Of a stretch of DNA of 20,747 nucleotides, positions 2,071 to 14,880 are shown piece after piece. Within the stretch, counting starts at the first letter, position 1. The number at the start of each line of letters is the position of its first letter. The notes under the pieces were generated by a model that made no database searches, was not told the origin of the DNA, and worked only from the letters and a program-made list of their open reading frames with translations. This DNA is from a virus (Duplodnaviria; Heunggongvirae; Uroviricota; Caudoviricetes): positions 1 through 20,747 of the IMG/VR virus record IMGVR_UViG_2579778622_000016. One strand, written 5' to 3'. Position numbers and translations under genes: made by a program.

Positions 2071-3467
2071 GCTATACCTCTCTTTTTCATGGCATCGAGC
2101 AGGATGTCCTGCACTGTTCGTTTTGAGTTGCGCCGCTCCATCACCATTTCATCCATAGTGTCGGCAGCAATAATGTGGTGAATAAATACCGGACGATTGT
2201 GTCCGGCCTGTATCTGCCTGGTGGGGCCGATACGTTCAATAATTTGCTGATATTGCTCCAGGTCCCACCAGTGTGAGAAAAATACCAGTATATTTCCGCC
2301 GTCCTGCATGTTCAGGCCGTGGCCCGCGCTGGCTGGGTGTGCAAAGAGAACAGGAATCTTTCCGGAATTCCAGTCGCGCAGTGTCTTTGGATCCTGGTCG
2401 AGGTGACGACCGCGAGGGAATGCTTTAAGCAAGCGTTCAAGATCGTGTTTCCAGTGATAAGCAACCAGCACAGGTGCGCCAGCTGCTTCGGTCAGTATGC
2501 TGTCCAGCGCCTGCAGTTTGGTGTCATGCAGTTCTGACCAACTTCCGGTGTCGTCTGTGTATACTGCGCCACTGGCGATTTGCAGACACTTCAGTGTCTT
2601 TGCCGCGGCGTTTGGTGCTTCGATGCCTTCGCCATTCAGCTCGAGGAACATTTCCTTTTCCATTTCACGATACTGCTGACGGGCCTTCGGCGGCATATCC
2701 ACGCGGATTACGTTATGGATGGGGTCTTTGATATCGAACCAGTCGGCCGCATCCAGCGAGAGGGTTACATCGGCTAACGCTCGCTGTATTTCACCCTGTG
2801 AGTGAGCAAAAGGCTCCAGTTTAGTCCAGCTCTGTCCCGGAAACTGTATCGAGTTGAACCAGCGTGAGGTAAACGCGCCATAAGTGCGCCCGAGACGTTG
2901 CCCTTGGTCCACAAACCACGATTGTCCCCACAAATCTACCAGGCCGTTCGGTGCTGGCGTACCGGTGAGATTTATCCAGCGCCGGACATACTTATGCGCC
3001 ACTTTGCCCAGCGCCGCCGCGCGCTTACCACCACCTCGCAGCCGGAAGGATTTTAGCCGGGTGCTTTCATCTGGAATGACAGTACCGAACGGCCATCGTT
3101 CTCCCAATTCCTCAACCAGCCAGACAAGGTTATCGTAGTTGATGGTGAACACGCTCGCGTTGCTGTTCGCCAGCGCTGTAGAGCGCGCTTTGGCATTACC
3201 AACAATCGGCTGCACCTCGATATTGCGCAAATGCCCCCACTTCACTGCTTCATCCGGCCATGTGCTGGCAGCCACGCGCAGCGGCGCGAGGACCAGTACG
3301 GGGCGTGTTTCTGCCCCTGCCATAAAAAGATCTTCCAGCGCAGTGAGCGTTGCCACGGTTTTACCCATTCCCATACCTGCCCAGATGTTGCAGCGCATAA
3401 TGTCGACTTGATGATTGATGATGAGATCTTGGTAGGGACGGGGGCTGAATAGTTTAGAAGGGGTCAT
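2067..3467 (-). CDS. SNF2-family (DEAD/DEAH-box) helicase
   Basis: 466-aa ORF with Walker A GMGKT and DExx-type IPDESTRL; C-terminal helicase domain. Typical partner of VRR-NUC and family-A polymerase in phage replication modules. Confidence 0.85.
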   Translation of the reverse strand: MTPSKLFSPRPYQDLIINHQVDIMRCNIWAGMGMGKTVATLTALEDLFMAGAETRPVLVLAPLRVAASTWPDEAVKWGHLRNIEVQPIVGNAKARSTALANSNASVFTINYDNLVWLVEELGERWPFGTVIPDESTRLKSFRLRGGGKRAAALGKVAHKYVRRWINLTGTPAPNGLVDLWGQSWFVDQGQRLGRTYGAFTSRWFNSIQFPGQSWTKLEPFAHSQGEIQRALADVTLSLDAADWFDIKDPIHNVIRVDMPPKARQQYREMEKEMFLELNGEGIEAPNAAAKTLKCLQIASGAVYTDDTGSWSELHDTKLQALDSILTEAAGAPVLVAYHWKHDLERLLKAFPRGRHLDQDPKTLRDWNSGKIPVLFAHPASAGHGLNMQDGGNILVFFSHWWDLEQYQQIIERIGPTRQIQAGHNRPVFIHHIIAADTMDEMVMERRNSKRTVQDILLDAMKKRGIA

Positions 3468-3751
3468 TAAGCCCCCTCTAGGTCAACATTGGGAAGCTTA
3501 TAGTCTGGTATGGTTTCATCCAATACCCTGGCGATAAAGTCATCTTTAGGGTAATAAATTACCGCTCCGAATTCTTCGCTTAAATAGTGACTTGAAGTAG
3601 CTGCGTTAGTATCGTTATCCCACGTTACAGGAACCAGACCTGTATGATCTTGTTTCCACGCAATAATAGGGTGGACCGTGTAAAGTGAACCATCATCGTT
3701 ATAAAGCACAACCCACCAACCGGGTTGAGCCGGCATATAATTATCCATCAC
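3467..3751 (-). CDS. Hypothetical phage protein (94 aa)
   Basis: ORF with GTG (3751) / ATG (3748) start behind SD GGAGGGG; stop overlaps the helicase start (TAATG). No recognisable motif. Confidence 0.5.
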   Translation of the reverse strand: MMDNYMPAQPGWWVVLYNDDGSLYTVHPIIAWKQDHTGLVPVTWDNDTNAATSSHYLSEEFGAVIYYPKDDFIARVLDETIPDYKLPNVDLEGA

Positions 3752-3775
3752 AATATCCCCTCCAGATTTTAGCTA
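3748..3775. repeat. Copy 1 of a 28-bp direct repeat (TCACAATATCCCCTCCAGATTTT-N-GCTA) carrying an SD and GTG start
   Basis: 27 of 28 positions identical to 5366-5393 (the first 23 bp are perfect); in both copies the repeat supplies the RBS and GTG of a minus-strand gene. Confidence 0.7.
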
Positions 3776-3806
3776 GCAGGGCGCGGGGTAATCCCGCGCA
3801 ATAATG

Positions 3807-4556
3807 TCAGATTAGATCGGTGTAGTAGGTGAAGTTGCCAAACTGCGGATGTGTCCAGCGCTTGCGGTTACCTTTCGGTGGTGTCGATTCGTTTAACAGC
3901 TTTTGAGCTGCTTGTTCGATCTCCGGAAGGTTAACGAGCAATCCCCGAACGCCGGTGTCTGAACGTACTGGTATCCTGGCGAAGCCGATCAATTTCCGGC
4001 ATGTTGAATCAGATAAACCTGTTTTCCATGCTGCTTTGCTGACGGGGACATATTCACCTTCAACATTAGATAAATTCGCTGGTGCGGCTGGTTGAAAATA
4101 GCCAGTTGCATCAAGACAGGCTTTCATTGTTGCTTCTGCTACGACGCGAGCAAGCTGGACGATGCCGTCGTTGATCTGAATTTTGGGTGTGGAAGGATGG
4201 GTAACAAGCGGTTGTACTTTACCTGTTTCCAGCTCACGCCAGCGCTTAACTACTTTATACCGGTCGTGGGCGCTATAACCAGTTACAAGCGTTGTGGAAA
4301 GGTCCTGATCGAGTAGTATTTCATCAATGACTTCGCGACCATTATAGACCTTCCTTTTGACTAAAAAGTCTTTATTTTCATGATGGTACATTTCTGTACT
4401 ATGAAAACCTAACTGCTCAAGAAGTGCTTTAATATCGCGCACGACTATTTTATGTTCTTTGCCGGTAAGTTCTGCAATCTCGCGACTGCTCATCATCGGT
4501 TGCTTACCAGTGCCTGCTAGTGTTAAAGTTGTTTCGAACATTGAAGTATTCTCCAT
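3807..4556 (-). CDS. Rha-family phage regulatory protein (antirepressor-like)
   Basis: N-terminal MSSREIAELTGKEHKIVVRDIKALLEQLG matches the Rha (Phage_pRha) signature as I remember it. The first ATG (4556) lacks an SD; the ATG at 4541 (GGAG upstream) may be the true start. Confidence 0.7.
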   Translation of the reverse strand: MENTSMFETTLTLAGTGKQPMMSSREIAELTGKEHKIVVRDIKALLEQLGFHSTEMYHHENKDFLVKRKVYNGREVIDEILLDQDLSTTLVTGYSAHDRYKVVKRWRELETGKVQPLVTHPSTPKIQINDGIVQLARVVAEATMKACLDATGYFQPAAPANLSNVEGEYVPVSKAAWKTGLSDSTCRKLIGFARIPVRSDTGVRGLLVNLPEIEQAAQKLLNESTPPKGNRKRWTHPQFGNFTYYTDLI

Positions 4557-4601
4557 TTAATAAAAGATGCGCTGGTAGCTGCAACTATCAGCGCGTTTTA
4601 T

Positions 4602-4778
4602 TTATTCATCCCACGGCTTGTTTGCAGCTTCCCTTGCAGCCTGCTGCGCAAAATAAATCAATTCAAAAGCTAACTGCTCTCCTTTCTCCAGCGAACTGAG
4701 AAGCCTTGCTGTTTCCAGCATGTCCGCGATATACCCGAAAATATCTGCCTGATGTAACTGCGTGATCTGAATAGCCAT
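4602..4778 (-). CDS. Small hypothetical protein (58 aa), not in the supplied ORF track
   Basis: Translated by hand: MAIQITQLHQADIFGYIADMLETARLLSSLEKGEQLAFELIYFAQQAAREAANKPWDE. SD GAGG about 9 nt upstream; first gene leftward of the divergent promoter/operator region. Confidence 0.35.
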   Translation of the reverse strand: MAIQITQLHQADIFGYIADMLETARLLSSLEKGEQLAFELIYFAQQAAREAANKPWDE

Positions 4779-4798
4779 AGCGTTAACCTCGTTTAGTT

Positions 4799-4877
4799 CT
4801 CATTGTGAGGACTAGATTTATTAGTACTCACAATGAGGCTTGAAGTCAACATGTTTGTGAGGCATGTTGTTCTCACA
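4799..4877. promoter_or_regulatory. Divergent promoter region with two palindromic operators (TGTGAG / CTCACA half-sites)
   Basis: Perfect 11-bp inverted repeat CTCATTGTGAG (4799-4809) / CTCACAATGAG (4827-4837), and a second pair TGTGAG (4856-4861) / CTCACA (4872-4877), just upstream of the RHH gene start at 4895. Confidence 0.5.
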
Positions 4878-4894
4878 CTTTCAAGGGATCATAT

Positions 4895-5224
4895 ATGAGC
4901 AAAAGAGACGACCCGCAGTTGAGGGTACGCATACCAGAATTACTAAAAGAGGCTTTGGAGAAGAAAGCACGAGCTAATAAGAGAACACTGACCTCTGAGA
5001 TCGTTAGCAGGTTGGAATCTACTATTCTTCAGGACAAATTACTTCATACATCTAGGGGGTTTGAGGAAGCTGCTGATGAGATTCTCATACTCAGGGATCT
5101 TCTCGAGAAACTTAAGACAACGTACCATCGAGAGCATCAGGCCGAATGGGTTTATGAAAACAAATACGAGCTTATTGAGGCGATGGAAAAACTTAAGAAG
5201 TTGCTAAATCCTGAGAATGAATAG
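4895..5224 (+). CDS. Arc/Mnt-type ribbon-helix-helix repressor with C-terminal coiled-coil (Mnt-like)
   Basis: 109 aa; N-terminal RVRIPELLKEALEKKARANKRTLTSEIVSRLE is a classic Arc-like RHH pattern; C-terminal heptad-like region. SD AAGGGA upstream. Confidence 0.7.
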   Translation: MSKRDDPQLRVRIPELLKEALEKKARANKRTLTSEIVSRLESTILQDKLLHTSRGFEEAADEILILRDLLEKLKTTYHREHQAEWVYENKYELIEAMEKLKKLLNPENE

Positions 5225-5369
5225 TGGATTCATCCTCTAAACTTTTACGTAACCGCCGGGTGATTTCGGCGGTTAGTGTTCTGTCGTTTTCTCTGGAAAT
5301 TTTTTCCAGTGCGTCTTTCAAGTCTTGCGGGATGCGTACCCGCAATTGTGGGTCATCACGTTTACTCAC
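5193..5369 (-). CDS. Arc-like ribbon-helix-helix protein (58 aa), paralogue of the 4895..5224 product
   Basis: Hand translation from GTG: (M)SKRDDPQLRVRIPQDLKDALEKISRENDRTLTAEITRRLRKSLEDESTIHSQDLATS; first 14 residues identical to the plus-strand RHH. SD GGAGGGG; GTG overlaps the VRR-NUC stop (GTGA). Not in the ORF track (under 60 aa). Confidence 0.55.
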   Translation of the reverse strand: MSKRDDPQLRVRIPQDLKDALEKISRENDRTLTAEITRRLRKSLEDESTIHSQDLATS

Positions 5370-5393
5370 AATATCCCCTCCAGATTTTTGCTA
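5366..5393. repeat. Copy 2 of the 28-bp direct repeat (see 3748..3775)
   Basis: 27 of 28 positions identical to 3748-3775; lies at the VRR-NUC 3' end and supplies the SD/GTG of the Arc-like gene. Confidence 0.7.
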
Positions 5394-5635
5394 TCCAGCA
5401 CCACCACGGTAAAGCCCAGTTTTCGCAGACGTTCATGTTCGCGCAACTGGTCGGCGCGTGGTGCTTTGCCGGGTGCTTTGCATTCAACGAAAACAAGACG
5501 GCCGCCGGGTAGCAGAACAATGCGATCCGGTACCGAGCGGCGACCGGGAGATACGAACTTAAAGGCCACACCGCCAGCCTTTTTTACTTCAGCGACGAGG
5601 TGCTTTTCGATTAGGTTTTCACGTTCATAGGCCAT
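5366..5635 (-). CDS. VRR-NUC domain nuclease (PD-(D/E)xK fold)
   Basis: 89 aa; PDRIVLLPGGRLVFVECK matches the VRR-NUC D...ExK core. Confidence 0.8.
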   Translation of the reverse strand: MAYERENLIEKHLVAEVKKAGGVAFKFVSPGRRSVPDRIVLLPGGRLVFVECKAPGKAPRADQLREHERLRKLGFTVVVLDSKNLEGIL

Positions 5636-5829
5636 TAGCTTTCTCCTTTCTGCTTTTTGCGTTTCTTCATGCAGATAGCGCAGTTCTCAGGATGGTCATG
5701 CCATTCATCAATCCTGATACCTGTGAACATCCATTTTCCGCATAGTGATATGGCTTCCCCCGAATTAAAGAAATGTGCTTTTTTTGACAGAGCGGGGAAC
5801 CCCCAACCCTTATTATCGATATTAGACAT
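5635..5829 (-). CDS. Hypothetical Cys/His-containing small protein (64 aa)
   Basis: ORF coupled to the VRR-NUC start; CGKW...HDHPENCAIC suggests a small metal-binding element; basic C-terminal tail. Confidence 0.45.
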   Translation of the reverse strand: MSNIDNKGWGFPALSKKAHFFNSGEAISLCGKWMFTGIRIDEWHDHPENCAICMKKRKKQKGES

Positions 5830-5865
5830 CGTCCACCTCCTTACGCTTTTCGCGCATGTTCTGCA

Positions 5866-6000
5866 TCAGACAAAAATCAAACCGACGTTCGCTTTGGCCC
5901 AGACCTGCATCGCCCGGTCGTACCCGCCGGACTGTTCAAGGCGCAAAGCCTCCCGCACAGTCCGGTAGTAAAGTAGATTGTCCCGGTATTTAAATGACAT
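5866..6000 (-). CDS. Small hypothetical protein (44 aa), not in the ORF track
   Basis: Hand translation MSFKYRDNLLYYRTVREALRLEQSGGYDRAMQVWAKANVGLIFV; lies directly downstream of an intrinsic terminator, so its expression context is unclear. Confidence 0.3.
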   Translation of the reverse strand: MSFKYRDNLLYYRTVREALRLEQSGGYDRAMQVWAKANVGLIFV

Positions 6001-6015
6001 ATATTTCGATTCCTG

Positions 6016-6041
6016 TAAAAAGCCCCTGACTGAGCAGGGGC
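6016..6041 (-). terminator. Rho-independent terminator (minus strand) downstream of the Bro-N gene
   Basis: Stem GCCCCTG (6022-6028) / CAGGGGC (6035-6041) with a 6-nt loop; the A-run at 6016-6021 on the plus strand is a U-run on the minus-strand RNA. Confidence 0.6.
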
Positions 6042-6052
6042 GAATTGAAGGA

Positions 6053-6817
6053 TTAACGAGGTAAAGTGGGGGGAGTATATCTGCCGATGCGGTCTTCTAT
6101 GGTCGGCAGAATGCACATGCTGTCGCTGAAGCGGTCATGCAACTGGTAAACCAGTTTCGAATCCATTTTTTCGAGAGCAGGCATTAACTGCGCTCGCCAG
6201 ATTTCGTTGATGCGCCGGAAGTTGTGACAGACGGCGCGGAGATTGTTGATGAACATTTCCTTCTCTGCGTCATTGATTGCTGTCTGAGCTTTCTGAATGC
6301 GTTTCGTGCTGCCATTCCGGTAGAAGCGTTCCTGAGCAGCAACAGCCTCATCCACGGTTGGATAGCACCCTACGTAAACGCTCTTCTCTCCGTCCCATGC
6401 ATAAGCCCTGTACGGATTGTATTTGCTCCGGTGATGGTAAATCATCTTCGGCAGACATTCCCTGTGCGGCGCCAGTATCGTGGAGGACTGCGGAACAGCG
6501 GTTTCTTTCTCGATAAGGTCAAGCACCCAACGGCGGAATTCTTTTGCTACTGGCGTTGTTGCGAACATCGCTACCAGGTGGGCACCGCGGAGGGAGAAAA
6601 TGCGGCGCGAGGCCTGTAAATTCCCCAAGGTAACCATTTTGATTACCTCGGACATGCCGAGAGTGAACTCATCCGTGTTGCGGGTGTAAATGTTAGTTAC
6701 GCTGCGAGCATCAGAATATTCTAGCGCGGTAGCCAGGGTAGCCGCAGTAAACCACTGCTTGCCGTTGTGTTCGACCGTTTCGAGAATGTGGGATTTGAAG
6801 ATGAGTTGAGTACTCAT
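6053..6817 (-). CDS. Bro-N domain protein (phage antirepressor family)
   Basis: 254 aa; N-terminal FTAATLATALEY...NLQASRRIFSLRGAHLVAMFATTPVAKEFRRWVLD fits the Bro-N pattern. SD AAGGA upstream; terminator-like hairpins on both sides. Confidence 0.75.
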   Translation of the reverse strand: MSTQLIFKSHILETVEHNGKQWFTAATLATALEYSDARSVTNIYTRNTDEFTLGMSEVIKMVTLGNLQASRRIFSLRGAHLVAMFATTPVAKEFRRWVLDLIEKETAVPQSSTILAPHRECLPKMIYHHRSKYNPYRAYAWDGEKSVYVGCYPTVDEAVAAQERFYRNGSTKRIQKAQTAINDAEKEMFINNLRAVCHNFRRINEIWRAQLMPALEKMDSKLVYQLHDRFSDSMCILPTIEDRIGRYTPPTLPR

Positions 6818-6967
6818 AGTCTTATGTCCTTGCTGATTTGTTCAGATTGCCCTGTGTTCAGCAGGGCGGTCGGGTACTTGAACACCGCAGCAAGCCGGCC
6901 CGTATCCTTAGCCTTGCGGCTGTTTTTCGGTATACGCGCTACCCGACCATATCTGAAAAATGGACAT

Positions 6968-6997
6968 AAAAAAAATCCGCATGACTGACGGGTGCGG
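6968..6997 (-). terminator. Rho-independent terminator (minus strand) downstream of the DNA polymerase gene
   Basis: Stem CCGCA (6977-6981) / TGCGG (6993-6997) with an 11-nt loop; on the minus-strand RNA it is followed by U8 (plus-strand A-run 6968-6975). Confidence 0.55.
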
Positions 6998-7061
6998 TTT
7001 CCGCTTGCTGTGGTGTGTTCAGCACCATGAAGCGGAATATACCTATTGGTCATCGCGGATG

Positions 7062-9125
7062 TCAATCTTTCCGGTATCTGTAAGATTCGAATCCTCCGGC
7101 GTTTAGTGGAATGCTCGTGGCCCAGTCAGGAACGGTTGCCAGTAACTGGCTGAGATGTTCTGCTGAGTAATCGGGTGAGTCAGGGGCCTCACTTATAATT
7201 TCATCGTGTACCGTCAGCACAATGCTGTAACCGGCATCTTCGATAAGCGGCATGTTTCCGGCCAGAACGTCGCGGGCGGCCGCCTGGGTGACGTTCTCTA
7301 CCAGCTTTCCGCCGTAGGTTTTGAGTCGTTGCCATTTACGCGAATAAGAGTTAACACCCATATAGGTGATATCCCCTTTTTCGATAACCGGAGACGGGTA
7401 GCATACAGCGCGTCCAGATGGCAGCTGTATGCGCAGCCACGCGCCATCACGTTGAATTTTAAGATAGCCGCAATACAATGTTTTTTGCGGTGTGGCGATT
7501 GCTGTGCGGACAGTGCGCTCCAGCTCGTACCAGAAATCGCAGGTAGCCGGGTGCGCCCTGCGCCACAGGCGCTTGAGCGAGTCACATGCGATGAATACAC
7601 GCTCGGACAGGCCAAAGGTCGACTTACGTTTAACCGATTCGTCGTACCAGCTTTTCGCCTCGCGGATAACATCGCGGGGAATGTTTGGCAGTGCGGCGTT
7701 CGCCAGCTCGTCGAGATCGAGACCGTAAACCAGAGCAAAAGTGATGAAAGCCGATACACCACCTCCATAACCCAGACCGAGTTCCATGACTTTACCGATC
7801 TGACGCATGTGTTTATCAACATCATCTGGTGCAATATCGAAAGCTTTTGCATACGCCAGTTTATATAAGTCCGGACCCGTTCCGGCGTCGTACTCTCTGA
7901 ATGCATTCAGTTTCCATTCCTCTCCCGCCAGCCATGCCAGCATACGGCCTTCAATGTTTGACAAGTCACTTACCACCAGTTTTTTGCCTGTTGGCGCGAT
8001 AATGCAGCCACGTAACGCTGAACTGGTTAGTTCCATGATATTGTCAAACAGCAGGTCTGCACATCCGGCTTTCAGTGCTTCGATGCCTTCGTCTATTTGT
8101 TCCTGTTTTAGTGAAGGGCGGGGAAGGTTCTGGGGCTGGAATAGCCGTCCGGCCCAACGACCGGTACGTGACGCCCCGCAGAACTGTAGCGTACCGCGTA
8201 AGCGCCCGTCGTGGCTTACGCCTTTCATTAGTGCCTTGTATTTACTGGTGCTGGTAGTACTGGCCTGCAGGCGGATAGCCAGCAGTTCTTTCACGGCAGA
8301 TGGTAAATTGGGGTCGGCAATACGACGTTCCAGAGTACTGCGTTGCATGTGTGGTAGCTCCACACCGTAGGATTCAACAATGTGCTTAATCAACGCGTCT
8401 CGTTGTGTGGCTGCCTGCACTTCGCCATCAGTCATTTCCTGTGTACGCTTTGCCAGGCGCTTTTGCTCCTGGTCTACCGCTTCGATCGCAGCGCGCGCGA
8501 GTTGCATGTCCATGCAGACGCCCCGGTCGTTGATCTGCTGATCACGATGCCAGAGCGCCAGCTCTGTCCCCTGATAATTCCACTTCGGCAGACGTTTATA
8601 GACTTCGCGCATTGCCTCGATATCCAGTCCGGCGTAAGCAACAAAGCGCCGCCATTCTTCCGGGTGGGTTTTGCTGGTGGCACGGCGCAGTTTGCTATTT
8701 TTCGGACGTGGCTTACAGAACAGCTGGATCAGCGCCTTACCTTCTTTGTCCTTCGCTTTGTCTTGCGGGACGCCTAGTACTTCGCAGAGTTCCCCCAGAG
8801 ACCCCGGGAGACCGTGCGCCAGCGCCTGCACCATCGTGTCGCGCCAACGTTCGACTGGCGGTGCCAGTCGCGGCATTGCATAACGCAGAACGGTGCGGTC
8901 GAAGTGAGAGTTATGGAAATAAAGCAGGGTTTCAGGGTCTGCGATTGCTTCGTATAAGCCGTGTGGAATACCACCACCGGCAGTGATATCCCACACGTTT
9001 ACTGGCCCGTCGTTGATAGCCCATGCGAAAAGCATCACTTCAACGCCTTCGGCATACGCATGGGTACCGTTGTTGATCGGAATGTCACAATAGGTTTCCA
9101 GGTCGCCCCATAGTATATTGGACAT
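7062..9125 (-). CDS. Family-A DNA polymerase with 3'-5' exonuclease domain
   Basis: 687 aa; Exo I GDLETY, motif [13 protein letters not shown], motif [13 protein letters not shown], motif C VHDE. SD GAGGA 6 nt upstream. Confidence 0.9.
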
Positions 9126-9186
9126 AAAATATCCTCATATGGTATATGGTTAAATGCTAGATATCATGAATTAAAGGAGACAACTA
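9126..9186. promoter_or_regulatory. 61-bp divergent intergenic region with tandem TATGGTA/TATGGTT (operator-like) and both RBSs
   Basis: TATGGTATATGGTT at 9138-9151 resembles the TATGGT/ACCATA motifs found next to the CI-like repressor gene; flanked by the PolA start (minus) and the 9187 gene start (plus). Confidence 0.35.
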
Positions 9187-9876
9187 ATGACTGTGGGTAA
9201 TAAGAGACAGCCTAATGGATTACCTGAATATTATTGTCACCGTGGTAACGACATAAAAGATGCGATAGTTCGGGATTTTATTATTCAGCCTGTTGCACAC
9301 CTGAAACTTATTACTGGACAAACTAAAACCAGTTATTCCGGTTATCCGTTAACCGATCAGTACTATTGTTTTTCATTTAAAAAACGCTCTGATGAAAATT
9401 GTACAGGGGCTTTTTTCTGTGGTAGAGATGTTGCAAATGATTTCATTCGGCGTATCGGTTGTACAGAGCTGCCGTTATTTAATCCTATGAAATCGGATAC
9501 CAGTGCAGCAATAGAACGTTCCGGTTCTGGCTCAGGTAGTTCCGGTATTACTGTCAAGCCAAATGCTGACAAAAAGCTATTTATAGACGCAGCTCGTCTG
9601 TTAATGACGCTGTGGGATTCAACAAGTAAGGGACAAACCCCACTGGCGTCGGTTCTTAATGAAGCAATTTCTGGTGGTATAGATAAACCTCCAGAAATTA
9701 GACATGTAGTGGCGGTTAATACAATGTTGGGTAACACAAAAAATACTTTAACTGGCCTGCTGGATAAAGCAAGAGCGAAGTATCCTGATGTGTTATTCAG
9801 AGATTTTGATTTCACGCCTCTTAACGAGATTGTAAAACGTTCAAAATCATATAATAAGCATCCCCCTTGTTATTGA
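9187..9876 (+). CDS. Hypothetical two-domain protein (229 aa), opposite-strand accessory gene in the replication operon
   Basis: Strong SD AAGGAGA 7 nt upstream; visibly AT-richer than the flanking genes; Cys/His-rich N-domain, SGSGSGSSG linker, C-domain. No family recognised. Confidence 0.6.
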   Translation: MTVGNKRQPNGLPEYYCHRGNDIKDAIVRDFIIQPVAHLKLITGQTKTSYSGYPLTDQYYCFSFKKRSDENCTGAFFCGRDVANDFIRRIGCTELPLFNPMKSDTSAAIERSGSGSGSSGITVKPNADKKLFIDAARLLMTLWDSTSKGQTPLASVLNEAISGGIDKPPEIRHVVAVNTMLGNTKNTLTGLLDKARAKYPDVLFRDFDFTPLNEIVKRSKSYNKHPPCY

Positions 9877-10511
9877 GTATCAGACACTGTATTGGTAGGA
9901 AGGCCTATCATTTCATTTAATGTCTCTCGATGTACTGCTGGTGCTAAAGGGACTGGCGGTGCGTCTGTTGGAAGCAGTTCTTTAGCTTCGGGCCATACAT
10001 CCAGTAATCGTTTTACTGTCCGAACTTTATTTAGAGCCGCGCTGACGTTCTGTATGATTTCGGTTTCATCACTTTTAATTTGTGTGTAGAGAGCATCAAA
10101 GCTATAAAACTCCGTTACCAGAGGATCTTCGCCAAGTAGAGTAAATTCTGCAGGTGCTATTTTATTAATATGCTCGGGGGCTCCTGATTCATAACCTCTG
10201 TAGTTGCCATTGAAATAAATGTTTGCTCTGGCTCCAGCCAGATTGAGATATATGCAGCAATCTTTTCGAATTAAAGAACTATTGGTTTTTAATGAATCAG
10301 GGATTTTTGTTACCATGGATTCAATCTTTTTTAGATTTTTTAATATTTCAGCTTCTTTCTCTACGCCCCCGATAGCTGCAAGCCGAACACGTTCGGCCCA
10401 TTCAACACGAGCAGCTCGTAGTGCTGATTTACGTTTGGGGATTCCCGCTTTCTCAAGTGCGTTATTGATGATTTGAGTTTTAAGGTGATTAGTTAATACG
10501 GGCTGTGACAT
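9870..10511 (-). CDS. Hypothetical protein (213 aa)
   Basis: ORF with SD GAGGG upstream of the ATG at 10511 (the track's longer form to 10541 would run through a GC hairpin). 3' end overlaps the 9187..9876 gene by 7 bp. Family not recognised. Confidence 0.55.
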   Translation of the reverse strand: MSQPVLTNHLKTQIINNALEKAGIPKRKSALRAARVEWAERVRLAAIGGVEKEAEILKNLKKIESMVTKIPDSLKTNSSLIRKDCCIYLNLAGARANIYFNGNYRGYESGAPEHINKIAPAEFTLLGEDPLVTEFYSFDALYTQIKSDETEIIQNVSAALNKVRTVKRLLDVWPEAKELLPTDAPPVPLAPAVHRETLNEMIGLPTNTVSDTQ

Positions 10512-10529
10512 TATTCTTTCCCTCATGAG

Positions 10530-10554
10530 ATCCCCCAGCATGTAGCTGGGGGAT
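10530..10554. other. Perfect 10-bp GC-rich hairpin (ATCCCCCAGC-ATGTA-GCTGGGGGAT) between two co-directional minus-strand genes
   Basis: Perfect inverted repeat; on the plus strand it is followed by GAATATTTTT (terminator-like for rightward transcripts), on the minus strand it lies in the 5' leader of the 213-aa gene. Confidence 0.4.
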
Positions 10555-10562
10555 GAATATTT

Positions 10563-11111
10563 TTAAATTAGTGCTTCAGCATCAGCACCTTCGCTGATAT
10601 CGTCGAAATCGTCAGCGCTTGCCACTCCGCCGCCAGCGAATGCATCGCCGTCTCGCAGGAACTGGACTCCGCCGAGTGAGGCATTAATGCGTTTACCGAA
10701 ATTATTGTCCTGTGCCCAGATATCGATAACGGCGTTTACATAGCACCCTGCATAGGGACGTCCATCAGCCTGAATTAGTGGCGAACGATCGCGATCAAGA
10801 ACAGCTGGGCGCGCTTTGTTAGCAGCGTTCAGGAAGAAATTGCCGGGAAAGCCTTCATACTCTGCTTTTTCATCACCATCATGCAGGCACAGATTGAGTT
10901 TTTTCTCCAGCTGACTATAAATGGGCTCCCACTTCTCTCCCCATTTTTCCTTCGCTACCTGCTTCATAGCTTTACGGATTTCTTCCAGTTGTGGGTGTTT
11001 GGGAGACATTAAAAATACTGCGGAGAAACGCGGATCGCCTTCGCCGTTTACAGTTTTAGCTTCAAACAGAGACGGGAAGGCCAGGCGAACATTGTTCAGC
11101 TTCAGTTTCAT
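10563..11111 (-). CDS. DUF2815-like protein, putative phage ssDNA-binding protein
   Basis: 182 aa; N-terminus MKLKLNNVRLAFPSLFEAK and the acidic C-terminal tail DDFDDISEGADAEALI fit what I recall of DUF2815/gp2.5-like SSBs. SD AAGGAAA upstream. Confidence 0.7.
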   Translation of the reverse strand: MKLKLNNVRLAFPSLFEAKTVNGEGDPRFSAVFLMSPKHPQLEEIRKAMKQVAKEKWGEKWEPIYSQLEKKLNLCLHDGDEKAEYEGFPGNFFLNAANKARPAVLDRDRSPLIQADGRPYAGCYVNAVIDIWAQDNNFGKRINASLGGVQFLRDGDAFAGGGVASADDFDDISEGADAEALI

Positions 11112-11126
11112 GGGTATTTCCTTAAA

Positions 11127-12428
11127 TCAGATGAGGTCTGCGGTTAGCGTATCGTCGGATACGTCGTCGAAATCATTTACAGGGTTGATATTGAGTGCGG
11201 GGCGTGGGTCTGACTCGGGAACGACGGTGGGTTTTCCATCAGCTCGTGTTATCAGTGCCTCGACTTTTGACCAACGGCGCGGACTGGCCTTTTTGATAAG
11301 TTTTTCGGCTTTTGTGGGGCTAATAAGTTTAAAGTCGAATACTTCTTCAGTTTTGTACCTGAACTGGTCCTTCAGAAGTGCGCGAGCTGCCTCTTCATCA
11401 CTCCAGGCCCGGTTACCTTGTTTTCCTGTTACCAGTTTAAACCCCGGTACCGGATGTCCGGCATTGAGTTCATTGTGAACCCGGTCCCGTACTGCCTTTA
11501 GCCAAGATTCAATAAAGTCGGCCTGGCTATAGATCTCTGCAAGCTGCTCAATGGTTAACAGAGGTACACGTGCGCTGGCATTGGTGATTATTTCGCTGAC
11601 AGGCTTTGTCAGATCTTCAAAATCGCTGGCCGCTGTTTGTAAATGCTGCATTTTCTGGGCAGTGCAAATAGCTTTTGCTTTACAGAAGCGGCACTGTTTT
11701 TCTCCAGGTATGAAGTTTTCCAGCGGTAGTGTCTCAATGCCTTCGCATTCAGCAATATTGAGAACAAGGATCGCACTGGTTGCGGCCTCCAGCGCCCGTT
11801 CACCGAAAGACTGAAGTTCCTGTACGGTTAACGACCATTCTGAAACGTGGTTGAGCCTTGGTTGGTGAATAAATAATCTTACAGTTTCAAAGTCATACAG
11901 CATGCTGAATTGTTCAAGCGCACCCAGAGCATACAGTTGTAGTTGCTCATTTTGTTCTGCATCAATGCGGACGCCTTTGCCATATTTCAGGTCGTGGATT
12001 TGTAATTCGTTACCAGCGATGATTATGCCGTCGGCAGTTCCGAAAGATTCTTCCACACCCGTTATATGTGAGAAATCAACACGTTGTTCAACCAATAGTT
12101 CATTATTCTTTGCAAGAGTCCAGACCGTATCAACATACCGGCCGACGGCTTCGACCATTTCATCATCCACCTGTGGGCCAGATTTATCATCAGGATTTTC
12201 GCGAAGGGGGTATGAGCCGAGAAACATAGAAACATTGCATCCGGCGTAGTGTTCCGGGTGGCTTTGCCTGTTTCGTAGAACTTTTTCAGCAAGCGCGTGC
12301 GCTGCAGTGCCCTCGATTGCAAAAGTTGTTTCTTTATCCGGTTGTGTGGCCTCCAGCGCCAGACTTCCTGGGCAGCGCATCCATCGATGCGCTGATGATG
12401 GAGAAAGTTGTGCATGAACGTCTGGCAT
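11127..12428 (-). CDS. DUF2800-like PD-(D/E)xK nuclease (Cas4/RecB-like) with C-terminal Cys cluster
   Basis: 433 aa; [16 protein letters not shown]-terminal signature, [10 protein letters not shown] cluster, acidic tail [23 protein letters not shown] 6 nt upstream. Confidence 0.8.
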
Positions 12429-14020: not shown

Positions 14021-14055
14021 AAATATGGTATTTATGGTTGCAAAAATACCATATT
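14021..14055. promoter_or_regulatory. OL-like operator cluster (TATGGT / ACCATA half-sites)
   Basis: TATGGT at 14024-14029 and 14033-14038, inverted ACCATA at 14047-14052, inside an AT-rich stretch of the 323-bp non-coding region left of the repressor gene. Confidence 0.4.
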
Positions 14056-14764: not shown

Positions 14765-14880
14765 GGTGTACCCCCTGATTCCTGATTTTTTGCTCTCCCT
14801 TATTAATACAATTTTTGTTGTAGTTGACAAACATCATTTATTGTCGCTAAATACCACATAAATTGTAGGAGACAATAATC
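14765..14880. promoter_or_regulatory. Divergent cI / cro promoter-operator region (OR-like)
   Basis: TTGACA at 14824-14829; inverted repeat TTATTGTC (14838-14845) / GACAATAA (14871-14878); AAATACCACAT (14850-14860); ATTGT-AGGAG-ACAAT palindrome whose centre is the cro SD. Confidence 0.5.

What the first reader, a model, noticed from the sequence alone, without database searches (positions are those of the whole stretch)
9126..9876. AT-rich opposite-strand gene wedged into the phage replication operon (candidate undescribed accessory, defence or exclusion function)
9187..9876 is the only plus-strand gene inside about 11 kb of minus-strand early genes, lying between the family-A polymerase and the DUF2815/DUF2800 genes that normally sit together. 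It has a strong SD, looks clearly AT-richer than its neighbours, and its 3' end overlaps the next gene convergently by 7 bp. The product has two roughly 100-aa domains joined by an SGSGSGSSG linker, with a Cys/His-rich N-domain, and I recognise no family. The upstream 61 bp carries tandem TATGGTA/TATGGTT resembling the operator-like motifs beside the repressor gene, which would tie its expression to the immunity circuit. Opposite orientation, compositional shift and insertion into a conserved module are the usual marks of a moron.
Basis: partly seen in the sequence, partly recalled or inferred. Interest (0 to 1): 0.75.

Follow-up and report, generated by a model that had tools for sequence, protein, structure and literature searches.

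The report
Uncharacterised cargo gene in prophage slot
A real, AT-rich, opposite-strand gene sits in a swap-in/swap-out slot of an E. coli prophage's replication operon; it belongs to a widespread but unstudied protein family with no recognisable fold that travels alone between phages, plasmids and bacterial defence islands, so it is a reasonable but unproven candidate for a new anti-phage or exclusion function.

Summary
ORF 9187..9876 (+) encodes a 229-aa basic protein with a strong Shine-Dalgarno site. It has two folded domains joined by a disordered Ser/Gly linker. It overlaps the next gene convergently by 7 bp, and its GC is 0.40 against about 0.49-0.54 for the backbone.

Three corrections:
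- The low-GC island also contains the convergent Nmad5 gene.
- X is not the only plus-strand gene (an Arc-like gene lies at 4895..5224).
- The Cys/His richness is mostly not conserved.

The slot between the PolA start codon and the DUF2815 stop codon is hypervariable. Of 159 E. coli genomes with this module, only 26-27 carry X. The others carry unrelated AT-rich membrane proteins, BRO-N or Ant.

Homologs occur alone, with no recurrent partner. They are found in prophages, an ICE, plasmids, a type I R-M operon, and next to IetAS, Lamassu-like, SIR2 and ToxN genes.

Best reading: a stand-alone accessory gene, probably lysogen-expressed defence or exclusion (confidence about 0.4). The proposed link to the immunity operators is not supported.

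The parts
9126..10555 (.). Low-GC exchangeable cassette, running from the base after the PolA start codon to just before the DUF2815 stop codon. It holds X, the convergent Nmad5 gene and a terminator-like hairpin.
   Evidence: GC is about 0.39-0.43 here against 0.49-0.57 in the flanks. Sequence shared with the variant prophages stops at the PolA ATG and resumes at TTAAATTAGTGCTT.
9119..9148 (+). Candidate promoter for X: TGGACA (9119-9124, overlapping the PolA start codon), an 18-nt spacer, then TGg-TATATG (9140-9148). This is inference only.
   Evidence: Read from the sequence. The consensus scan flagged no plus-strand promoter here. The core TGGTATATGGTTAA is conserved upstream of X in L007, L013, L014 and L027. 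A near-copy lies upstream of the 89-aa cargo gene in L021.
9137..9151 (+).
   Evidence: The same 9-mer forms a palindrome at 14022-14055 and occurs at 14851. Comparative data argue against a repressor operator.
9174..9179 (+). Shine-Dalgarno sequence AAGGAG, 7 nt upstream of the ATG.
9187..9876 (+). X: a 229-aa basic protein (pI 9.2) of the uncharacterised family Pfam PF27729 / UCP028583.
9226..9486 (+). N-terminal alpha/beta domain (residues about 14-100): helix, three-stranded sheet, helix. It carries most of the conserved polar residues: R19, H38, K40, Q45, K47, S49, D57, Y59, Y60, C78, G79, N99 and P100.
   Evidence: AF2 model with pLDDT about 87-94 over this stretch. Conservation.
9499..9549 (+). 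Disordered Ser/Gly-rich linker (residues 105-121). Its length varies from 22 to 39 residues across the family.
   Evidence: pLDDT below 50. Linker statistics.
9565..9855 (+). C-terminal five-helix domain (residues 127-223), with invariant N178.
9870..10541 (-). Nmad5-family gene, convergent with X and overlapping it by 7 bp. PGAP starts it at the equivalent of 10511. It is part of the same low-GC cassette but is not an obligate partner of X.
   Evidence: Pfam PF18757, E 3.8e-54, and phrog_1965. PGAP annotation in L002. X occurs without Nmad5 in L005-L007, L013, L016-L018 and elsewhere.
10530..10565 (+). Strong hairpin followed by a U-run on the plus strand only. It is a terminator-like element at the right edge of the cassette, so a transcript from X would run antisense across Nmad5 before reaching it.
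   Evidence: 10-bp stem with 7 GC pairs. dG -20.8 kcal/mol, z -4.05. Conserved in variant B, L021. The hairpin just after X (9893-9910) is not significant, z -0.81.

Best explanation
X is a stand-alone accessory ('moron'-type) gene occupying an exchangeable cargo slot of a temperate E. coli phage. The slot lies between the start codon of the family-A DNA polymerase and the stop codon of the DUF2815 ssDNA-binding protein.

Shown:
- The slot is hypervariable.
- X is compositionally foreign to the backbone.
- X is a member of a large, cross-phylum, horizontally mobile family (PF27729/UCP028583).
- The family always keeps the same two-domain layout.
- It has no recurrent partner gene.
- Its other homes are prophage cargo positions, an ICE, plasmids, a type I R-M operon and islands holding known or candidate defence genes.

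Inferred:
- X is transcribed from its own promoter in the 61-bp spacer, against the direction of the repressed early operon. It would therefore be made in the lysogen and be shut down by convergent early transcription after induction.
- The basic protein uses the conserved polar pocket of its N-domain (Tyr-Tyr, Ser, Cys, His, Lys, with Asn178 from the helical domain) to bind a nucleic acid or nucleotide ligand.
- It protects the lysogen against superinfecting phages or other mobile DNA, as a single-gene defence or exclusion factor.
For: Slot variability:
- 26-27 of 159 E. coli genomes with the flanks carry X. At least five other cargo types occupy the same slot, four of them AT-rich genes on the plus strand.

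Composition:
- GC 0.396 against about 0.49-0.54 for the backbone.

Own expression signals:
- Strong SD.
- A conserved upstream element shared with a different cargo gene in L021.
- A plus-strand terminator-like hairpin at the cassette edge.

Not a core phage gene:
- No homolog in 50,697 phage records.
- No PHROG for any of 53 diverse members.

Stand-alone and mobile:
- An all-vs-all comparison of neighbours across 18 loci finds no recurrent partner.
- The S. pneumoniae and Fannyhessea copies are 80% identical.
- Homologs occur on 27 plasmids.

Defence neighbourhood:
- Embedded in a type I R-M operon after a HigB-like gene.
- Beside a SIR2 gene in Dickeya.
- Beside IetAS (AAA plus S8 protease; IetS E 1.6e-65).
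- Beside CTD1/MComp1/LmuB-like and MkoC-like genes.
- About 5 kb from a Lamassu-like CTD7-MC3-LmuB_C in Enterobacter.
- Beside PDC-S25 SIR2 (E 7e-153) and ToxN/AbiQ on pPA21A.
- Other slots of the same prophage family hold PDC-S35 (TIR) and PDC-S42.

Protein properties:
- Basic, pI 9.2, with most of the family near pI 9.
- Confident two-domain model, pTM 0.81.
Against: - No experiment and no expression data support the function. The defence reading is guilt by association, without a background control for how often any mobile gene lies near defence genes.
- No PADLOC model matches X or any of 53 relatives.
- The consensus scan finds no plus-strand promoter in the spacer.
- Several contexts are neutral: between housekeeping genes in L006, L037 and L038, and in line with the late genes of a P2-like prophage.
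- Some contexts would fit an anti-defence or establishment role equally well, such as a pneumococcal ICE near the relaxase and staphylococcal plasmid regions with JAB/DUF3846 genes.
- No catalytic motif is strictly conserved, and no fold relative suggests a mechanism.
Confidence: 0.4

Rival explanations
1. X is an anti-defence or establishment factor. It would help an incoming mobile element (phage, ICE or plasmid) overcome host immunity, for example by binding a host defence protein or a signalling nucleotide. It would be made early after entry or induction rather than in the lysogen.
For: - X lies inside the early replication region and beside Nmad5, a gene implicated in escape from Tmn defence in Dhillonvirus (PMC11846954).
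- Homologs sit in a Tn5252/PPI-1-like pneumococcal element a few kb from MobC and the relaxase.
- Homologs sit in staphylococcal plasmid regions with JAB, DUF3846 and YolD-like genes.
- On pPA21A a homolog lies next to a zincin-like (ArdC-type) gene.
- A small soluble two-domain protein with no enzymatic motif fits a binder or inhibitor.
Against: - Absent from all 50,697 phage isolate genomes and from PHROGs, where anti-defence genes are usually found.
- Found as single-gene insertions in chromosomes with no surrounding mobile element.
- Found inside a type I R-M operon.
- It is basic, not acidic like DNA-mimic anti-restriction proteins.
- It is transcribed against the early operon.
Confidence: 0.17
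2. X is a nucleic-acid-binding regulator or maintenance factor of the element itself. It might control polymerase or early-gene expression, or silence the toxic neighbour Nmad5 through its long antisense 3' region. It would have no role in conflict with other elements.
For: - X is kept directly upstream of, and divergent from, PolA in prophages with only 70% PolA identity.
- A conserved element lies in the shared 61-bp spacer.
- The protein is basic, with a domain-linker-domain layout.
- The first convincing plus-strand terminator lies beyond Nmad5.
- nmad5 could not be cloned in Dhillonvirus work.
Against: - Most close relatives of the phage lack X, including induced, virion-forming phages such as vB_EcoM-606R2.
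- X occurs far from any polymerase or Nmad5 gene in most other contexts.
- No HTH or other DNA-binding family is detected.
Confidence: 0.13
3. X is a selfish free-standing nuclease-type element (homing-endonuclease-like). It would have a catalytic N-domain and a DNA-binding C-domain, and would insert itself between conserved genes.
For: - Single-gene insertions occur at sharp boundaries between conserved genes.
- The layout is domain, flexible linker, domain.
- HNH and NUMOD4 genes populate the same module in relatives.
- One of 53 members hits T5orf172 weakly, E 0.027; T5orf172 is recalled from memory as a member of the GIY-YIG clan.
Against: - The weak hits are at noise level after multiple testing.
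- No strictly conserved acidic or metal-binding residues.
- Absent from sequenced phage isolates, where homing endonucleases abound.
Confidence: 0.07

Closest known systems
Pfam PF27729 (UCP028583; named after PIRSF uncharacterised conserved protein 028583)
   Same: The 99%-identical cluster representative and every homolog retrieved carry this precomputed tag. Members share the same length (about 200-230 aa), the same two-domain layout and the same conserved motifs: CRG, AHxKLL, GQxKxS, YYxF, CGxxAAxxF, PLFNP and VNT.
   Different: Nothing differs in kind. The enterobacterial clade has an N-terminal extension of about 15 residues and a Ser/Gly linker rather than an Asn/Ser-rich one. The family has no assigned function, and no paper in the searchable library mentions it.
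Prophage morons and defence hotspots (lambda rexAB/sieB/bor type; P2/P4 hotspots of Rousset et al. 2022, cited from memory)
   Same: A fixed position between conserved genes holds interchangeable, AT-rich, unrelated cargo. The cargo is often oriented against the operon and has its own SD and terminator-like element. Neighbouring slots in relatives hold TIR (PDC-S35) and PDC-S42 candidates.
   Different: This slot lies inside the replication module (PolA | DUF2815) of an Enc34-like early operon, not at the P2 or lambda positions. Lysogenic expression and a phenotype are untested. The cassette also carries Nmad5.
Single-gene defence candidates catalogued in PADLOC (PDC-S families)
   Same: A short, stand-alone gene of unknown mechanism that recurs near known defence systems and on mobile elements.
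   Different: X and 53 diverse relatives match no PADLOC v2.0.0 model. It is therefore not one of the catalogued candidates as of 2023. Later catalogues could not be checked.
DUF151 family protein (TM0160, PDB 1sj5; recalled from memory as the bifunctional-nuclease (BFN) family)
   Different: The rmsd is 4.3 A and identity is 11%, with no sequence-profile signal. Foldseek finds nothing at E <= 1e-3. This is a lead only, not evidence of homology.

Membership tests
Pfam PF27729 / UCP028583 | Significant match to the family profile over the full length | tested here: met
   Indirect. The model is absent from the local Pfam copy, so one search gives no hit. The 99%-identical representative P0001 and all 18 + 103 homologs carry the precomputed PF27729.1 tag, and the name is shown. 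A profile built from X and its relatives retrieves 454 clusters of the same length and layout.
Prophage moron / variable cargo | Present in some and absent from other closely related phage genomes at the same position | tested here: met
   26-27 of 159 E. coli genomes carry X. Five other cargo types sit between the same PolA and DUF2815 boundaries.
Prophage moron / variable cargo | Nucleotide composition differs from the surrounding genome | tested here: met
   GC 0.396 (X) and 0.412 (Nmad5), against 0.539 (PolA), 0.494 (DUF2815) and 0.484 (DUF2800).
Prophage moron / variable cargo | Own promoter and terminator | tested here: inconclusive
   The consensus scan finds no plus-strand promoter. 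A hand-read TGGACA-N18-TGgTATATG lies in a conserved element. A strong plus-strand hairpin with a U-run sits at 10530-10565, but beyond Nmad5.
Prophage moron / variable cargo | Expressed from the repressed prophage | not testable with these tools
   Needs lysogen RNA-seq or a reporter fusion.
Known or candidate anti-phage defence systems (PADLOC v2.0.0) | Match to a system-component HMM | tested here: not met
   X has only IetA at E 0.034 (noise). The 53 relatives give no consistent hit.
Defence-island gene (guilt by association) | Homologs recurrently lie within a few genes of known defence systems | tested here: inconclusive
   Positive contexts: type I R-M (L003), IetAS (L028), LmuB/CTD1/MComp1 and MkoC-like (L033, L035), Lamassu-like (L037), SIR2 (L005) and PDC-S25 plus ToxN (L043). 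Neutral contexts also exist (L006, L038, L016). No background frequency was computed.
Phage replication accessory protein | Conserved at this position in all related phages and present in phage genomes generally | tested here: not met
   Absent from most relatives, including phage vB_EcoM-606R2. No homolog in 50,697 phage records. No PHROG.
Zinc-finger / Cys-His metal-binding domain | Four conserved Cys/His ligands in a CxxC/HxxH-type pattern | tested here: not met
   Only C78 (48/53), the CRG cysteine (about 43-49/53) and H38 (41/53) are conserved. C61 is present in 21/53. C72 and C92 are not conserved.
Homing endonucleases (GIY-YIG, HNH, LAGLIDADG, PD-(D/E)XK) | Catalytic-domain profile or fold match | tested here: not met
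Repressor-controlled (operator-linked) gene | The upstream site matches the phage's own operators and co-varies with immunity type | tested here: not met
   The 9-mer is shared in this window. The X-upstream element is nevertheless conserved in L007, L013, L014 and L027, which have different repressors and no such 9-mer elsewhere. In L002 the OL-equivalent has diverged while the X spacer is identical. 9-mer recurrence is at chance level.
Two-gene module with Nmad5 (e.g. toxin-antitoxin-like pair) | Obligate co-occurrence of the two genes | tested here: not met
   In E. coli X is always found with Nmad5 (27/27). But Nmad5 occurs with an 89-aa gene instead of X (L021), and X occurs without Nmad5 in every other lineage examined.

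The most novel reading that the evidence does not exclude
PF27729/UCP028583 is a new single-gene anti-phage (or anti-mobile-DNA) immunity family built on a previously unseen fold. Its N-domain pocket (Tyr-Tyr/Ser/Cys/His/Lys plus Asn178 from the helical domain) would sense or act on a nucleic acid or nucleotide. Temperate phages, ICEs and plasmids would carry it as cargo to protect their hosts. In this prophage its transcript would also run antisense over the toxic Nmad5 gene.
Probability: 0.25. Interest if true: 0.7.

Novelty: new member of a known kind. Interest (0 to 1): 0.5.

Why it matters
If X protects lysogens, this would add a compact, stand-alone immunity gene with an unrecognised fold. 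It would be shared by Proteobacteria, Firmicutes, Actinobacteria and Fusobacteria, and it would give a function to a catalogued but blank Pfam family of several hundred clusters. It would also define a new cargo or defence hotspot (PolA start codon | DUF2815 stop codon) in a common family of E. coli prophages. That hotspot could be mined for further systems, since four other unrelated AT-rich cargo genes already sit there. Even if the function differs, the family is a clean target. It is one gene with no partner and a confident structural model, and natural isogenic prophage variants exist with and without it.

Tried and rejected
**Searches that gave little or nothing**
- afdb50 fold search: the library was not available.
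- The genome-contig scan with A1 used over-specific patterns and returned only 3 loci.
- The viral-contig scan gave 8 loci, 5 of them the same E. coli prophage.
- A profile search against PDB sequences found nothing below E 0.66.
- Literature searches for PF27729, UCP028583, PIRSF028583 and SP_1049 found nothing relevant.

**Ideas considered and dropped**
- Permuted papain-like Cys-His-Asp hydrolase (H38, D57 and C78 at a helix N-terminus). It was not adopted because the three residues are less conserved (41, 38 and 48 of 53) than S49, Y59, Y60 and N178. I also could not inspect model coordinates.
- DNA-mimic anti-restriction protein. Rejected because the protein is basic.
- Toxin-antitoxin pair with Nmad5, or an SIR2 partner. 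Rejected because co-occurrence is not obligate, and the two SIR2 neighbours are unrelated outside the core.
- CI-operator control of X. Not supported.
- The antisense ORF 9363..9815 (-). Treated as a shadow ORF because its length is not conserved among homologs.
Full report
**1. What is at the coordinates**

The window is an E. coli prophage integrated next to yfhL; it is 98-99% identical to regions of many E. coli chromosomes. The ORF at 9187..9876 (+) is real. It has 229 codons, an ATG start, and AAGGAG 7 nt upstream.

It diverges from the start codon of a family-A DNA polymerase gene (7062..9125, -) across a 61-bp spacer. It overlaps the 3' end of the next minus-strand gene (9870..10541) by 7 bp.

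That neighbour is not DUF2815. It is an Nmad5-family gene (Pfam PF18757, E 3.8e-54; phrog_1965). DUF2815 (the Enc34-type ssDNA-binding protein, 10563..11111) and DUF2800 (11127..12428) follow it.

GC is 0.396 for X and 0.412 for Nmad5. It is 0.539 for PolA, 0.494 for DUF2815, 0.484 for DUF2800 and 0.494 for the window. The compositional island therefore contains two convergent genes, not one.

X is not the only plus-strand gene in the minus-strand block. An Arc-like gene lies at 4895..5224.

**2. The protein**

An AlphaFold2 model built on 16 homologs is confident (mean pLDDT 82.9, pTM 0.81).
- An N-terminal alpha/beta domain: helix 21-30, strands 31-40, 58-66 and 73-79, helix 80-90.
- A disordered linker, residues 105-121, which includes SGSGSGSSG.
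- A five-helix C-terminal domain, residues 127-223.

The protein is basic (pI 9.16), as is most of the family.

Across 53 diverse relatives the best-conserved residues are G79 and N178 (53/53); F62 and F98 (52); Y59 and Y60 (51); S49 (50); N99 and P100 (49); C78 (48); and R19 (47). Less conserved are Q45 (45), H38 (41), K47 (39), D57 (38) and K40 (37).

From the strand pairing, H38, D57-Y60 and C78 lie at one end of the sheet, next to the N-terminus of helix 80-90. This suggests a pocket. That is an inference from topology, because I could not read the coordinates.

The 'Cys/His-rich' character of this copy is mostly not conserved, and there is no zinc-finger pattern.

**3. Family and fold**

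Local Pfam, PHROGs and NCBIfam give nothing for X. PADLOC gives only noise (IetA, E 0.034).

The large protein database returned 18 homologs, all carrying a precomputed Pfam tag, PF27729.1. A later output names it UCP028583. This is an 'uncharacterised conserved protein' family, newer than the local Pfam copy.

An exhaustive HMMER search with the alignment found 454 clusters (at 50% identity) at E <= 1e-3 and 112 at E <= 1e-30. Nearly all are 200-230 aa and cover the whole profile.

Members come from Escherichia, Dickeya, Enterobacter, Morganella, Providencia, Pantoea, Xanthomonas, Vibrio, Streptococcus pneumoniae, Staphylococcus, Lysinibacillus, Eubacterium/Lachnospiraceae, Fannyhessea, Fusobacterium and Campylobacter. 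Every source calls them 'hypothetical'.

No fold relative was found.
- Foldseek against PDB and BFVD: nothing at E <= 1e-3.
- A profile search of PDB sequences: nothing.

Scanning all 53 diverse members individually against Pfam, PADLOC and PHROGs gave no family hit by more than two members.

**4. The slot is a cargo hotspot**

Of 159 complete E. coli genomes matching 8600..10700, only 26 cover it fully. X itself is in 27 of 5,426 genomes. It is always >= 99% identical, single-copy, chromosomal and next to Nmad5.

Relatives with about 96% identical PolA and 99% identical DUF2815/DUF2800 carry other cargo between the same two genes:
- a 209-aa membrane protein (+) (phage vB_EcoM-606R2 and most genomes);
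- a 199-aa membrane protein (+);
- an 89-aa membrane protein (+) plus a 78%-identical Nmad5;
- a BRO-N gene (-);
- a 199-aa gene (+) plus Ant and a small gene.

These cargo genes are unrelated to X and to each other, apart from the two 199-aa versions. They are AT-rich, with GC 0.29-0.40.

Homology between variants breaks immediately after the PolA ATG and resumes at the DUF2815 stop codon.

Other slots of the same prophage family hold PADLOC candidates: PDC-S35 (TIR) and PDC-S42.

X is nevertheless not a recent arrival everywhere. Prophages from Pantoea and from metagenomes have only about 70% PolA identity and about 60% DUF2800 identity. They keep X (56-58% identical) at the same position, followed there by DUF2303 instead of Nmad5.

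**5. Where the family lives elsewhere**

X-family genes are always single, with no recurrent neighbour. An all-vs-all comparison of every ORF in 18 loci found nothing shared except X itself, one housekeeping methyltransferase pair and ABC ATPases.

Contexts found:

| Context | Locus |
|---|---|
| Inside a type I R-M operon, after a HigB-like gene and an HTH/M78 gene | L003 |
| Beside a 1,056-aa SIR2 protein in Dickeya | L005 |
| Between tail gene S and baseplate gene J of a P2-like Xanthomonas prophage | L016 |
| In a pneumococcal ICE/PPI-1-like element next to an epsilon/zeta (PezAT-type) toxin-antitoxin pair | L017 |
| After RelB/ParE in Fannyhessea | L018 |
| Next to IetAS (AAA + S8 protease) and a serine recombinase | L028 |
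| Downstream of a YD-shell toxin | L031 |
| In an island with CTD1/MComp1/LmuB-like, MkoC-like, Schlafen-type helicase/GIY-YIG and YhcG genes | L033-L036 |
| About 5 kb from a Lamassu-like CTD7-MC3-LmuB_C system in Enterobacter | L037 |
| On plasmid pPA21A next to PDC-S25 SIR2 (E 7e-153) and ToxN/AbiQ | L043 |
| On staphylococcal plasmids | L041, L042 |

Some contexts are neutral, with the gene between housekeeping genes (L006, L038).

The S. pneumoniae and Fannyhessea proteins are 80% identical, which indicates recent cross-phylum transfer.

tblastn finds no homolog in 50,697 GenBank phage records. X is therefore not a regular phage gene and not a replication accessory.

**6. The upstream motif**

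The tandem TATGGTA/TATGGTT is present. The 9-mer ATRTGGTAT occurs four times in the window against 0.22 expected:
- upstream of X;
- twice as a palindrome at 14022-14055, 3' of the S24/LexA-type repressor gene (an OL-like position);
- once in the repressor/cro divergent region.

- The element in front of X, TGGTATATGGTTAA, is conserved in L007, L013, L014 and L027. Their repressors match this one only at 34-47% over short stretches, and their loci contain no ATRTGGTAT elsewhere.
- In strain MINF_1D the X spacer is identical, while the OL-equivalent has diverged to ACCACAAATGTGGT.
- The number of 9-mers from the spacer that recur anywhere in the window is about what chance predicts.

A near-copy of the element also precedes the alternative 89-aa cargo gene.

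The simplest reading is that it is part of a cargo promoter. By hand, that promoter reads TGGACA (9119-9124, overlapping the PolA start codon), N18, TGg-TATATG (9140-9148). The consensus scan does not call it, so this remains an inference.

**7. Transcript end**

The hairpin just after X (9893-9910) is not better than shuffles (z -0.81). The first strong plus-strand terminator-like element is at 10530-10554 (dG -20.8 kcal/mol, z -4.05). It is followed by a U-run only on the plus strand, and it sits in the DUF2815|Nmad5 spacer. It is conserved in the 89-aa/Nmad5 variant.

A transcript from X would therefore run antisense across all of Nmad5. Early minus-strand transcription would not be stopped by this element.

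Nmad5 is of interest in its own right. In Dhillonvirus a missense change in nmad5 lets phages escape the Tmn defence. The gene could not be cloned, apparently because of toxicity, and its deletion does not give escape (PMC11846954).

**8. Interpretation**

Shown:
- X is exchangeable, compositionally foreign cargo.
- It belongs to a large, mobile, stand-alone family of unknown function and unrecognised fold.
- The family is frequent on mobile elements and near defence genes.

Inferred:
- It is expressed independently of the repressed early operon, and so in the lysogen.
- It binds a nucleic acid or nucleotide.
- It benefits the host-prophage pair by defence or exclusion. I put this at about 0.4.

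Rivals: an anti-defence or establishment factor (about 0.17), an element-intrinsic regulator including antisense control of Nmad5 (about 0.13), and a selfish nuclease-like element (about 0.07). The remainder is 'something else'.

**9. Novelty and score**

The kind of thing is well known: a prophage moron in a variable slot, belonging to a catalogued DUF-type family. The function is not known.

Several features make it a better-than-average candidate for experimental follow-up:
- breadth (454 clusters);
- a confident model without fold relatives;
- absence from PADLOC, PHROGs and phage isolates;
- the clean single-gene architecture.

All functional evidence is contextual. Interest 0.5.

Noticed in passing
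window 6860..6948 (-): Rfam RF02221 (sRNA-Xcc1) matches at 71.4 bits (gathering score 53, E 1.7e-11). It lies between the BRO-N gene and the 3' end of PolA and overlaps a mechanical 83-aa ORF.
   Followed up: no
window 9870..10541 (-): The convergent neighbour is an Nmad5-family gene that belongs to the same low-GC cassette. Its protein is only 78% identical in variant prophages whose backbone is 96-99% identical. In Dhillonvirus, nmad5 missense mutants escape the Tmn defence, and the gene appeared too toxic to clone (PMC11846954).
   Followed up: partly
window 10530..10565 (+): A strong hairpin (10-bp stem, dG -20.8 kcal/mol, z -4.05) has a U-run only on the plus strand. It lies between DUF2815 and Nmad5, marks the right edge of the cassette, and is conserved in the 89-aa/Nmad5 variant (L021).
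   Followed up: partly
window 14022..14055 and 14849..14859: An operator-like palindrome, AATATGGTATTTATG/CAAAAATACCATATT, lies 3' of the S24/LexA-type repressor gene. A related half-site lies in the repressor/cro divergent region. This is a lambda-like OL - repressor - OR layout. The equivalent sites in strain MINF_1D have diverged.
   Followed up: partly
window 3467..7176 versus L002 7914..10577: A second mosaic region lies downstream of PolA. This window carries Rha-type and BRO-N antirepressor-like genes and a plus-strand Arc-like gene (4895..5224). Strain MINF_1D instead has VRR-NUC, DUF4406, ANR and plus-strand genes including a PADLOC PDC-S42 candidate. Phage vB_EcoM-606R2 has a TIR protein (PDC-S35).
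   Followed up: partly
L001 6045..6674, L022 2053..2652, L024 4553..5152, L021 2083..2352: The alternative cargo genes in the same slot are very AT-rich (GC 0.29-0.40) predicted membrane proteins of 209, 199 and 89 aa. They have no Pfam or PADLOC match, and the 209-aa type is the commonest in E. coli. They could be exclusion or abortive-infection candidates in their own right.
   Followed up: partly
window 9363..9815 (-): A 150-aa antisense ORF lies inside X. It stays open in some homologs (154 aa in L006) but is much shorter in others (70-113 aa). It is most likely a shadow of the conserved coding frame.
   Followed up: partly
L041 4953..5627 (S. aureus plasmid pWBG707): A full-length family member (profile positions 2-209 matched) is annotated only as a 113-aa C-terminal fragment. 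tblastn had made it look like an N-domain-only homolog.
   Followed up: yes
L003 3660..5741: In one metagenomic lineage the family member is the third gene of a tight same-strand trio: a HigB-like toxin, a 372-aa HTH_3 plus M78/ImmA-like protein, then the UCP028583 member. The trio is inserted between hsdR and hsdS/hsdM of a type I R-M system. This is the only context with an operon-like arrangement.
   Followed up: no
L034784-type record NZ_CP034784.1 (hit H13/H27): One E. coli genome (ECZP248) has an IS1 insertion within the 8600..10700 region. X itself remains intact at 99.4% identity, so the insertion is elsewhere in the cassette or its flanks.
   Followed up: no
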